A stretch of 64,000 nt of DNA from Escherichia coli (GTDB lineage: Bacteria; Pseudomonadota; Gammaproteobacteria; Enterobacterales; Enterobacteriaceae): assembly GCF_002854065.1 (NCBI RefSeq), contig NZ_CP024154.1; one strand, written 5' to 3'. Shown one piece after another: positions 60,001-63,000 of the stretch (its first letter is position 1; each line of letters begins with the position of its first letter). The position numbers were made by a program.

Positions 60001-63000
60001 CTTTTGAGAAACATATGTACGGTGTTTTTATGCATCTCAGGTACTGAGATATTTTGTGGCTCAGTTCTGTAACTTTTCCCGTAACATTGTCTGTTGTTAC
60101 GGGAAAGTCCGGTTTTTGTATTGCACCAGAGAATACTCAGACTGTGATGCTGCCACAGCGTCAGCAGGCTTTCTGAACGGTGTAACATTACTTCATGTTA
60201 ATGATAATCACTATCATTAAGTCTTGACATGCCATTTTCTCCTTAATAAATTAATAATGTATATGTATCCATATACGTAAGCAGTTAATTCATTTGTTTT
60301 CCTCAGAGGATGAAGGAGATACCGAATGTCTGACCCTGTACGGGGTTCAGTGAGTTAGCTGGCCTGGATGTAACCACTCGTTCAACTCAATTCTCTTAGC
60401 GTGGGAAAATTTCCCTTTTCCAAGCGGACCCCTATTAATATTTGTTTTGTTTTAGGTTCTATTCAACATAGGTCATCCTAAAATACATTGAAGATAACAA
60501 GATAACAAGATAACAAGATAACAAGATAACAAGATAACAAGATAACAAGGTGTTATCTTGTTATCTCAAGGTGTTATCTTTGTTTTACTTCTGCTATCAA
60601 TCGTGATACCTCTGTTTTTGATAGTGTTTTAAGTGCTTCTACCGCCGCCCTGACAACATCAGAACGATTCACTCTGCCTTTACCTGAAACCATCTCAGCC
60701 GTTATAAGGGCATCAATGTCTTTTAGGTTTTCTTCAAAAAAAGAAATACTCACTGGTTTTGCTTTGCTTACAACCGATGATTTATCTGATGACTTTTTGG
60801 TATTATCAAGGCCAGCCGTGCCACCGTTAATAAATGCTGCCTCGTCACGAGGTGAAGTGTTTGCTCTATTTCTCACAGAATAACCTCTTTCACTAACGCT
60901 TCGATTTCTTGCTGGGCTTTATCATTTTGCGTTTCAAAAATTGTCATTGATTCGGCCCAAGCATCTCGATGTGCTTTACGATCACATACCCGGGAGTTTG
61001 CCAGATGCATTTCAGGGTAATCCTTAAGTACTTCAGCTGCCTCATTGGCTTCATTAACAAACATATTTGTGGGCGTCATGTTTAAAACGAGATATCCCCG
61101 AACATCCTCATTAAAATCTTTTGCTGCTGTAAAAACGGAGCATGTATGAGGCACAACATCCAGGTCCATCTGAGATGGGCGCAAAGGAGAAATGAATACA
61201 TCTGCGGCCATCAATCCACTACGCATTTCTGCGCTATCACGGCCAGCACAGTCTGCAATAACAAAATCATAGGATTTTTCGTGTTCCTTTAACATGGCTT
61301 TGATGTTACCTGTCGCGCCTGTAACCGGAATATGAGGGAGATCTTCAGGGCGATTGTTGTACCAGGTTAATACTGATTTCTGGTCATCTGCGTCGACAAT
61401 AATCACTCTATTGCCTAGTGACATCAGATACGCAGCTATAGATACCGCCAGTGTACTTTTACCTACCCCACCCTTTTGACTACCTAATACTATTATCATT
61501 ATAGCCTCATATTAAGCTGTTAAGTTAACAACTTAATATTGCCATCTGAACGCGAATCATGCAATTATTTTTGTTATGTTAACAACTTAGCAAGTTGTTA
61601 AGTATTTGATTTATAGATTAATTAAGATAACAAGATAACAAGATAACAAGATAACAAGATAACAAGATAACAAGATAACAGGATAACAGGATAACAATAT
61701 TATGGGTGGATTACATATTCATAACTGGGCTACTGGCAAATCTGTCCATCTGGTGGTATACGCAGGAGAAAGCATTTCCCGTTTCATTTGCCATTCAGGG
61801 GCGGTTCCTCGCCCCGCAAACCACACTTTCCCTTTTCCCGACTGGTTCAGTTCATCGAGTGTTTTCATTAACTTTTCACTGTTTTTACGGGGCTGGATTT
61901 CATCAAATAATCCCGGCTGCGCTATACCCGATGGTGTGAAATCAGCCAGCATGACACCTGCCTTCATATAGCGGTACCCTTCACGCCAGACATGGTTTAA
62001 CGCTCTGCATGCTGCGGCAATAATGTCCCGGCTGTCCTGTGTGGGCAATGGAAGCTTTTCCACAGCGGCATTGCTGTAACAGGGTTCTTTTACTGCAAAG
62101 GGGGATGTCCGTACAAATGTCGTCACCTGCCGGCAATACTGACGCTCCCCACGTAGTTTCTCTGCGGCCCGCTCTGCATACTGAACAACAGCCTGGTGCA
62201 TGGCATCTTTGTCTGTGATTCGTTCACCAAAACTGCGACTACAGACAATCTGCTGTTTTGCCGGCGGTGCTTCTTCCAGAGATATGCAGGACTCGCCGTT
62301 GAGTTCGCGTACCGTACGCTCAAGAATGACGCTGAAGTTTTTCCGGATGAATGCCGTGTTAGCCTGCGCCAGCTGCAGTGCTGTGTTAATACCCAGCGCA
62401 TTCAGCTTTTCCGTCAGTCTGCGTCCTACTCCCCAGACCTCACCAACTGGCTGCAACCCCAGTAGCTTCAAGATCCGATTACGGTTTTCTGCCGTCAGCG
62501 CGACCACACCGGAAAACTGTGGCCATTGCTTTGTTGCCCACTGGGCACTTTTAGCCAGCGTTTTTGTAGGCGCAATGCCCACCCCCATGGTGAGTCCTGT
62601 CCAGCTCTTTACCTGTTCCCTGAGCTGATGACCAAAAATCTCCGGAGAGATGCAATGATTTATCCCCCGCAAATCAATGAACATTTCATCAATTGAGTAG
62701 GGCTCAACTGCGGGAGAAAGCGACTCCAGAACAGCCATAACCCGTTGGCTCATGCTGTGGTACAGCGCATAATTGCTGGAAAATACATGTATTTTCTTCT
62801 CCAGGCGCATTTGTCTCACCTGAAACCAGGGCTGCCCCATTCTGATGCCAAGGGCTTTTGCCTCCGGGCTGCGCGCGATCACACAGCCATCGTTATTGCT
62901 GAGTACGATGACCGGTTCGTTGCGAAGGTCCGGGCGGAAAACTTTTTCACATGAGGCGTAGAAACTGTTGATATCAGCCAGTGCAAACATCAGCGTAACT

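What the first reader, a model, noticed from the sequence alone, without database searches (positions are those of the whole stretch)
60493..61697. parA/parG module bracketed on both sides by arrays of the same octamer (gataacaa)
Nine direct 8-mers lie upstream of parA and seven direct plus inverted copies lie at the parG 3' end, all in the same orientation. This is consistent with a centromere/operator for a type Ib ParA with an RHH partner, but having arrays on both sides is notable and may reflect two binding sites or a duplicated centromere.
Basis: partly seen in the sequence, partly recalled or inferred. Interest (0 to 1): 0.45.

Follow-up and report, generated by a model that had tools for sequence, protein, structure and literature searches.

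The report
Known IncI plasmid partition locus ParABS
This is the plasmid-segregation (partition) cassette of IncI/I-complex resistance plasmids: a ParA ATPase, a small DNA-binding ParB, and two arrays of the ParB-binding octamer GATAACAA flanking the genes. It was characterised experimentally in 2020, so the finding is real but ordinary.

Summary
On the minus strand lie parA (61499-60873, 208 aa) and a 100-aa gene (60876-60574). Upstream are 9 tandem octamers (61626-61697). Downstream are 7 tandem octamers (60493-60548) plus 3 inverted ones (60550-60578). Both proteins are 100% identical to ParA and ParB of pESBL-EA11 (E. coli O104:H4). For that plasmid, Poidevin et al. 2020 (PMC7602700) showed mini-F stabilisation by the locus, GFP-ParB foci that need the plasmid, and EMSA ladders with one complex per GATAACAA repeat. 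They described arrays on both sides and compared them with pB171 and pSM19035. The finding is therefore already known.

New here:
- The "RHH partner" guess is supported by structure prediction, though the protein is not a ParG-family member by sequence.
- Array copy number varies in 8-bp steps among plasmids encoding identical proteins.
- Relatives down to 55% ParB identity keep 8-bp-period arrays on both sides, some with a different unit sequence.
- The promoter region holds two palindromes of near-octamer (GTTAACAA) units, a candidate operator.

Still open: whether each array alone is a sufficient centromere, and whether the upstream array or the palindromes repress transcription.

The parts
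61626..61697 (+). Upstream parS array: 9 tandem octamers (6 GATAACAA, 2 GATAACAG, 1 GATAACAA), 127-198 bp upstream of the parA start codon.
   Evidence: the same array in pESBL has 7 units; ParB binding to octamer repeats shown by EMSA (PMC7602700)
61579..61601 (.). Perfect inverted repeat TTAACAACTT-N3-AAGTTGTTAA built from near-octamer units (GTTAACAA, 1 mismatch). It overlaps the candidate -35. Candidate operator (inferred).
   Evidence: (I10); conserved in pESBL, p866, pO113 and others
61564..61593 (-). Candidate sigma-70 promoter of parAB (-35 TTGCTA, 18-nt spacer, -10 AATAAT). This is a consensus match only.
   Evidence: the number of promoter-like hits is no higher than in shuffles, so this is weak
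61509..61539 (.). 31-bp near-perfect palindrome ATATTAAGCTGTTAA-G-TTAACAACTTAATAT just upstream of the GAGG ribosome-binding site (61508-61505). Second candidate operator (inferred).
   Evidence: I7; nearly identical in Klebsiella/Raoultella relatives at about 87% DNA identity
60873..61499 (-). parA: 208-aa type Ib Walker-type partition ATPase (deviant Walker A KGGVGKST), with no N-terminal DNA-binding domain.
   Evidence: identical to pESBL ParA WP_000587689.1; 33% identity over full length to the pB171-type par2 ParA carried by pMAR7
60574..60876 (-). parB: 100-aa centromere-binding protein. The GTG start overlaps the parA stop (GTGA). It has a conserved disordered N-terminal tail (residues 1-22), a variable linker, and a predicted ribbon-helix-helix domain (residues 38-82) followed by an extra C-terminal helix.
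   Evidence: identical to pESBL ParB/Hp7 WP_001245884.1
60550..60578 (-). Three octamers in inverted orientation (GATAACAC, GATAACAA, 5-bp gap, GATAACAC). The last one contains the parB stop codon.
60493..60548 (+). Downstream parS array: 7 exact tandem GATAACAA units. Together with the inverted units it can form an 18-bp RNA/DNA hairpin.

Best explanation
This is the type Ib ParABS partition cassette of R64/pESBL-type I-complex plasmids.

Shown: ParB (100 aa) binds the GATAACAA octamers.

Inferred: it binds as ribbon-helix-helix dimers, about one per 8-bp unit, cooperatively, coating the upstream and downstream arrays into partition complexes. Its conserved flexible N-terminal tail (invariant R2, N3, R4 ... 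E12, F15, I16, G18, G19) contacts nucleoid-bound ParA-ATP and stimulates its ATPase. The resulting ParA gradient spaces plasmid copies over the nucleoid so that each daughter cell inherits one. By analogy with pB171 parC1 and the TP228 OF operator, the upstream array and/or the two promoter-proximal palindromes of near-octamer units probably also act as the operator through which ParB represses parAB.
For: - Identity: ParA and ParB are 100% identical to pESBL-EA11, with the same neighbours (yagA, impCAB).
- Experiments on pESBL (PMC7602700): Tn-seq depletion of insertions in the locus; stabilisation of an unstable mini-F by the cloned locus; GFP-ParB foci only when the plasmid is present; EMSA ladders of 7 and 8 complexes on probes with 7 direct or 4+4 inverted octamers; a faint single-unit complex, read by the authors as suggesting cooperative binding.
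- PMC10286972 states that parAB of R64 is 100% conserved in pESBL and is present in 48% of 460 I-complex plasmids.
- ParA: MipZ/AAA_31/CbiA Pfam hits; full-length match to TP228 ParF (E 2.3e-14); 33% identity to a pB171-type par2 ParA.
- Conservation: KAKPVS.S (strand) and R.NRSD (start of helix 2) are invariant across 29 homologues. Relatives at 55-88% ParB identity all have 8-bp-period arrays on both sides.
Against: - In the native pESBL, deleting par did not by itself cause visible plasmid loss. It caused a growth and competition defect, because the pnd toxin-antitoxin system and conjugative re-entry mask loss. The phenotype is therefore context-dependent.
- EMSA was done with cell extracts, not purified protein.
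- No experiment separates the two arrays or tests autoregulation.
- The RHH fold, the one-dimer-per-unit stoichiometry and the role of the N-terminal tail rest on prediction and analogy. ParB has no significant sequence match to any Pfam family or solved structure.
- The promoter call is no better than chance.
Confidence: 0.93

Rival explanations
1. Division of labour. Only one array (for example the downstream one) is the true centromere. The upstream array together with the promoter palindromes is purely an operator for ParB autorepression.
For: In TP228, the parH centromere and the OF operator are adjacent but separable sets of the same boxes (PMC3130281). In pB171, parC1 also regulates transcription (PMC7602700 discussion). 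The window has extra near-octamer palindromes at the candidate -35 and before the ribosome-binding site. PMC7602700 says explicitly that the role of the upstream array is undetermined.
Against: The upstream array lies 127-198 bp from the start codon, distal to the candidate promoter. It is as long and as regular as the downstream one, and it expands and contracts in the same way. In TP228 both sets of boxes were proficient centromeres. By my recollection, either pB171 site alone also supports partition.
Confidence: 0.25
2. The inverted part of the downstream array serves mainly as an intrinsic transcription terminator or RNA-stabilising hairpin for parAB mRNA, not as ParB sites.
For: A terminator-like site was found at 60568-60530: 18-pair stem followed by UUAUCUUGUU. 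The RNA fold energy is -30.1 kcal/mol, z = -5.9 against shuffles.
Against: The stem has only 4 G-C pairs, and any inverted repeat of a tandem unit will fold this way. The number of inverted units varies from 0 to 5 among plasmids with the same proteins, so the hairpin is not conserved. ParB binds the 4+4 inverted probe in EMSA. The two roles are not mutually exclusive.
Confidence: 0.1
3. The arrays are selectively neutral microsatellite-like expansions near a par operon, and the functional centromere lies elsewhere.
For: Copy number is highly polymorphic: upstream 4-13 units and downstream direct 4-19 units among plasmids, many of which encode identical proteins.
Against: ParB binds the repeats directly, and foci depend on the plasmid. 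Arrays are conserved on both sides in relatives down to 55% ParB identity, and the unit sequence changes in some lineages (GATACTAA, TTAATAAC) while the 8-bp period is kept.
Confidence: 0.02

Closest known systems
pESBL / R64 ParABS (IncI1; Poidevin et al. 2020, PMC7602700)
   Same: ParA and ParB are 100% identical. The octamer consensus GATAACAA is the same. Arrays lie upstream and downstream, with inverted units at the parB 3' end. The neighbours are the same (yagA, impCAB).
   Different: Only copy numbers and variant units differ. The window has 9 upstream, 3 inverted and 7 direct downstream units. pESBL has 7 upstream, 5 inverted and at least 10 direct downstream units. In pESBL a Tn3-family inverted repeat abuts the downstream array, whereas the window has the uninterrupted flank.
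pB171 par2 (type Ib parC1-parA-parB-parC2), compared here through the copy on the related EAF plasmid pMAR7
   Same: The layout is the same, with repeat arrays on both sides of a parA-parB operon (PMC4270457; PMC7602700). ParA is 33% identical over its full length (E 3e-36). ParB is small (91 aa) and gives a weak profile match across the whole predicted RHH region (E 0.0025, probability 11.7%).
   Different: The repeat sequence differs, and by my recollection the unit length also differs (6-bp repeats in pB171 against 8-bp here). ParB homology is not established. pB171 par2 sits back to back with a type II par1 locus, which this locus does not.
TP228 ParF-ParG-parH
   Same: ParA matches ParF over its full length (E 2.3e-14). 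The partner is a small protein with a flexible N-terminal tail and an RHH domain. Binding sites repeat every 8 bp (4-bp box plus 4-bp spacer) in direct and inverted orientation, with one dimer per box (PMC3130281). This parallels the one-complex-per-octamer EMSA ladder.
   Different: There is no detectable ParG sequence homology (hhalign probability 0.9%; no Pfam ParG hit). The TP228 boxes are ACTC and are all upstream. Here the unit is GATAACAA and a second array lies downstream.
pSM19035 delta/omega
   Different: The ParA match to delta is only marginal (E 7e-4, Walker A region only). It is a Gram-positive system, and omega is also a global regulator of copy number and toxin-antitoxin genes.

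Membership tests
pESBL/R64-type ParABS | ParA of the WP_000587689.1 type | tested here: met
   The 208-aa translation is identical to the pESBL-EA11 gene. Five other plasmids 97-99.9% identical to the window in DNA carry the same RefSeq protein accession.
pESBL/R64-type ParABS | 100-aa ParB (Hp7, WP_001245884.1) | tested here: met
   The translation is identical.
pESBL/R64-type ParABS | parS made of GATAACAA octamer repeats both upstream and downstream of parAB | tested here: met
   consensus and layout as described in PMC7602700
pESBL/R64-type ParABS | ParB binds the repeats and the locus stabilises a plasmid | not testable with these tools
   Shown experimentally for identical proteins in PMC7602700. 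It is not re-testable in silico.
Type Ib partition systems | Small ParA (about 200 aa) with a deviant Walker A and no N-terminal HTH domain | tested here: met
   208 aa; the KGGVGKST motif lies at residues 9-16; end-to-end alignment with the 206-aa ParF and with the 214-aa par2-type ParA.
Type Ib partition systems | Small centromere-binding protein that is not an HTH/CTPase ParB (typically RHH) | tested here: met
   100 aa with no ParB/Spo0J Pfam hit. An (RHH)2 fold is predicted. This rests on prediction only.
Type Ib partition systems | Autoregulation of the operon by the centromere-binding protein | not testable with these tools
   Near-octamer palindromes overlap the candidate promoter and 5' UTR. 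No expression data are available.
TP228 ParG family (Pfam ParG) | Sequence homology to ParG | tested here: not met
   No Pfam hit at E<=10. hhalign of the family profile against ParG gives probability 0.9% and E 0.061, with only 18 columns aligned at the beta-strand. The ParG sequence used was verified against 1p94.
TP228 ParG family (Pfam ParG) | RHH fold with a disordered N-terminal tail | tested here: met
pB171 par2 | Repeat arrays on both sides of parA-parB (parC1, parC2) | tested here: met
   Layout, compared with PMC4270457 and PMC7602700.
pB171 par2 | ParB homologous to par2 ParB | tested here: inconclusive
   hhalign E 0.0025 and probability 11.7% over 45 columns. The comparison protein comes from pMAR7. 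Its equivalence to pB171 par2 rests on the divergent parMR/ParA-ParB layout and on my knowledge.

The most novel reading that the evidence does not exclude
The locus may have three functionally distinct ParB-binding elements rather than two redundant centromeres: a distal upstream centromere array, a promoter/5'-UTR operator built from GTTAACAA-type palindromes that ParB reads with different affinity, and a downstream array. ParB bridging of the two flanking arrays could loop out the operon. Rapid 8-bp-step expansion and contraction could tune partition strength or incompatibility between co-resident I-complex plasmids.
Probability: 0.25. Interest if true: 0.35.

Novelty: already known. Interest (0 to 1): 0.1.

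Why it matters
I-complex (IncI1/B/O/K/Z) plasmids are major carriers of ESBL genes, and this cassette is one of the functions that keeps them in cell lineages. It was identified, named and tested biochemically in 2020, so rediscovering it adds no new biology. The modest additions here are a predicted RHH fold for a ParB described as lacking a recognisable DNA-binding motif, candidate operator palindromes, and documented repeat-number polymorphism. These could guide the experiment still missing: separating the roles of the two arrays.

Tried and rejected
- Sequence searches with ParB, as a single sequence and as a 29-sequence profile, against Pfam, NCBIfam and PDB sequences gave only chance-level hits.
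- hhalign against ParG was negative.
- The promoter scan found no more sites than in shuffled sequence, so the promoter assignment is tentative.
- Rfam found nothing in or next to the locus.
- pB171 could not be fetched under AB024946. NC_010862 turned out to be pMAR7, and its pB171-like double par locus was used instead.
- The 4434 megablast 'hits' overstate the distribution of the locus. Only 915 records cover at least 80% of the query. Most of the rest match short flanking segments: an 89-bp stretch, the imp end, and a 43-bp stretch next to colicin genes.
- Chance or neutral microsatellite was considered and rejected (see rivals).

Full report
**Observation.**

The region was read directly. 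Two overlapping genes lie on the minus strand:
- A 208-aa ORF at 61499-60873.
- A 100-aa ORF at 60876-60574. Its GTG start overlaps the stop of the first gene (GTGA).

The octamer counts are as follows:
- Exact GATAACAA occurs 21 times in the 64-kb window, against 1.75 expected. No shuffle out of 100 reaches 21. Fifteen of the 21 lie between 60493 and 61697.
- Tandem Repeats Finder reports period-8 arrays at 60491-60549 (7.4 copies), 60551-60566 (2 copies, inverted) and 61624-61697 (9.2 copies).
- With one mismatch allowed, the upstream array has 9 units: 6 GATAACAA, 2 GATAACAG, 1 GATAACAA.
- The downstream site has 7 exact direct units plus 3 inverted units at 60550-60557, 60558-60565 and 60571-60578. 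The last of these contains the stop codon of the small gene.

**Identity.**

The larger protein hits MipZ, AAA_31 and CbiA (ParA-superfamily) models. The small one hits no Pfam family. Megablast against 72,556 plasmids finds 915 records covering at least 80% of the 1.5-kb query. These are mostly conjugative MOBP/MPF_I plasmids of E. coli, Shigella and Salmonella, plus a group of Klebsiella/Raoultella plasmids at about 87% identity. The flanking genes are yagA on one side and impB/umuC-like, umuD-like and dinI-like genes on the other.

A literature search led to Poidevin et al. 2020 (PMC7602700). In the IncI plasmid pESBL of E. coli O104:H4 they identified a type Ib system:
- ParA, whose annotation they corrected to include the Walker A motif.
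- A 100-aa 'Hp7' protein, renamed ParB.

I fetched pESBL-EA11 (NC_018659.1). The window's ParA and ParB translations are 100% identical to its proteins WP_000587689.1 and WP_001245884.1.

The published experiments therefore apply directly to this locus:
- Tn-seq depletion of insertions in the locus.
- Stabilisation of an unstable mini-F by the cloned locus.
- GFP-ParB foci only in cells carrying the plasmid.
- EMSA ladders of seven and eight complexes on probes with seven direct or 4+4 inverted octamers. The single-unit complex was faint, which the authors read as suggesting cooperativity.

A second paper (PMC10286972) states that parAB of R64 is 100% conserved in pESBL and occurs in 48% of 460 I-complex plasmids. 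The same 2020 paper already notes that pB171 and pSM19035 have dual arrays. [quoted passage not shown]

**Is the partner an RHH protein, and is it ParG?**

Sequence methods were negative:
- phmmer and a 29-sequence profile found nothing in PDB sequences.
- There was no Pfam hit even at E<=10.
- hhalign of the family profile against TP228 ParG gave probability 0.9%. It aligned only the stretch KAKPVSISFFEE / KIKRVNVNFDEE.

The family alignment has three parts:
- An invariant N-terminal segment (R2 N3 R4 ... E12 F15 I16 G18 G19 A21).
- A variable linker (residues 23-36).
- An invariant core: K38-A-K-P-V-S43, S45, N50-L, I54-D, I58, E61, R68, N70-R-S-D73.

Structure prediction supported RHH:
- AlphaFold2 on this alignment gave a disordered N-terminus, an extended segment at residues 41-47, and helices at 48-64, 71-82 and 87-98. 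pLDDT is 86-96 in the C-terminal half.
- Foldseek of the monomer was not significant, but its top hits were RHH ParD antitoxins.
- RHH is an obligate intertwined dimer, so I built a single-chain tandem construct of residues 36-100 for 24 homologues. The model has pTM 0.80. Beta-strands now appear at residues 42-44 of each copy, and these are the only strands in the model, so they must pair with each other.

The RHH reading is supported by prediction. Membership of the ParG sequence family is not.

**ParA relationships.**

The best solved relative is TP228 ParF, matched end to end (E 2.3e-14). NCBIfam ParA_partition scores 155.8 bits, below its 180-bit cutoff.

To compare with pB171 par2, I used the pB171-like double par locus on pMAR7. 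There, parR-parM lie divergent from a 214-aa ATPase and a 91-aa protein.
- ParA is 33% identical over its full length (E 3e-36).
- The ParB profile aligns weakly but across the whole predicted RHH region (E 0.0025, probability 11.7%). This is suggestive, not conclusive.

**Comparative anatomy of the arrays.**

Among plasmids, many of which encode the same two proteins, the copy number differs:

| Plasmid | Upstream units | Inverted units | Downstream direct units |
|---|---|---|---|
| Window | 9 | 3 | 7 |
| pESBL | 7 | 5 | at least 10 |
| p866 | 9 | 3 | 12 |
| STEC plasmid | 13 | 3 | at least 16 |
| ETEC plasmid | 8 | 3 | 19 |
| pMB9108_2 | 10 | 1 | 12 |
| pO113 | 7 | 1 | 10 |

Upstream counts for p866, the ETEC plasmid and pO113 include one in-register unit with two mismatches, which the one-mismatch scan did not list.

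- In pESBL the downstream array is directly abutted by a Tn3-family inverted repeat.
- Klebsiella/Raoultella IncF/IncR relatives have 4-11 upstream and 4-12 downstream units.
- In the top 25 megablast hits, the matched span differs from the 1501-bp query by a multiple of 8 bp in 24 cases, ranging from -48 to +104 bp. This fits slipped-strand gain and loss of whole units.
- Variant units such as TTGCTATC appear in both arrays of the same plasmid.

More distant ParB relatives at 55-71% identity were fetched with their contigs. All have parA-parB with 8-bp-period repeats upstream and downstream, but some use a different unit:
- GATACTAA-type in a Pantoea plasmid.
- TTAATAAC-type in P. ananatis, with 4 copies in one isolate and 8 in another.
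- GATAACAA in a Citrobacter plasmid and in a metagenomic plasmid.

The dual-array architecture is thus a conserved property of the family and not a recent duplication in one plasmid.

**Promoter region.**

Between the upstream array and parA lie two inverted repeats made of near-octamer units (GTTAACAA, one mismatch from the parS unit):
- A perfect 10-3-10 repeat at 61579-61601.
- A 31-bp palindrome at 61509-61539, immediately before the GAGG ribosome-binding site.

The only plausible sigma-70 match for parAB is -35 TTGCTA at 61593-61588 and -10 AATAAT at 61569-61564. Its -35 lies in the centre of the first repeat. However, the scan finds no more promoter-like sites than in shuffled sequence. 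The second palindrome is almost unchanged in the 87%-identical Klebsiella loci, and analogous palindromic units occur in the distant relatives. I infer an operator for ParB autoregulation, by analogy with TP228 OF (PMC3130281) and pB171 parC1. This is untested.

**Mechanism.**

Shown for identical proteins:
- ParB binds the octamer repeats in direct or inverted orientation, with one shifted species per repeat.
- The cassette stabilises a heterologous plasmid.

Inferred:
- ParB binds as RHH dimers inserting a beta-ribbon (residues 41-47) into the major groove at 8-bp intervals. This is the same register as ParG on ACTC boxes with 4-bp spacers.
- The conserved disordered N-terminal tail engages ParA and stimulates its ATPase, as the ParG tail does for ParF.
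- Nucleoid-bound ParA-ATP gradients then space the plasmids.

**Minor rival for the inverted units.**

The inverted units could form a terminator-like RNA hairpin (-30.1 kcal/mol, z -5.9). This is weakened by the variable number of inverted units (0-5) among relatives.

**Verdict.**

The finding is real, its interpretation is essentially right, and it is already known. It is the pESBL/R64 ParABS system described in 2020, including the arrays on both sides. The residual open questions are whether the two arrays are redundant, whether the upstream array or the palindromes act as the operator, and the structure of ParB. These are incremental.

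Noticed in passing
window 60345-60433: An ~89-bp unannotated stretch between yagA and the downstream array is 92-97% identical to a segment in a large share of the 4,434 matching plasmid records, including IncF plasmids of E. coli and Klebsiella that lack this par locus. In two IncF plasmids it lies about 1.4 kb downstream of parM-parR, with no gene listed there (the PLSDB gene table is incomplete).
   Followed up: partly
window 60300-60342: A 43-bp stretch is 100% identical to sequence annotated under colicin Ia genes in other I-complex plasmids (hits H59-H64). This suggests a recombination junction or colicin-region remnant next to the par locus.
   Followed up: no
L003 (pESBL-EA11) about 29860-29880, compared with window 60480-60493: In pESBL the downstream octamer array runs directly into a Tn3-family terminal inverted repeat (GGGGTCTGACGCTCAGTGGAACGAAAACT), so the blaTEM/CTX-M-15 insertion abuts the centromere array. 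The window carries the uninterrupted flank (TTCAATGTATTTTAGG...).
   Followed up: partly
L009 and L010 (Pantoea ananatis contigs), about 2330-2400: Two isolates encoding the same 101-aa ParB homologue have 4 versus 8 copies of a different octamer (GTTATTAA) downstream of parB. The Pantoea locus L005 uses TCTTAGTA-type units. The unit sequence changes in some lineages while the ParB beta-strand KAKPVS.S stays invariant. How specificity changes is unexplained.
   Followed up: partly
L007 1-1104 and L011 2352-3686; window 58632-60047 (yagA): A ~445-aa protein with a precomputed Endonuc-like_C (PF27227) hit lies next to the par operon in two distant relatives, on different sides. The window's neighbour YagA (a 471-aa ORF here) gave no hit in the Pfam copy I scanned. 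Possible conserved linkage of a YagA-like gene with this par family.
   Followed up: no
window 53490-53639, 9255-9411, 5679-5766: Rfam gathering-threshold hits: the repZ pseudoknot (PK-repZ, 162 bits), sok antitoxin RNA (125 bits; the pnd/hok-type system) and AgrB antisense RNA (47.7 bits). These confirm an I-complex plasmid backbone.
   Followed up: no
window 60530-60568 (minus strand): The inverted and direct octamers at the parB 3' end form an 18-pair, A/U-rich RNA hairpin followed by a U-rich tract (terminator-like; -30.1 kcal/mol for the 106-nt region, z -5.9).
   Followed up: partly
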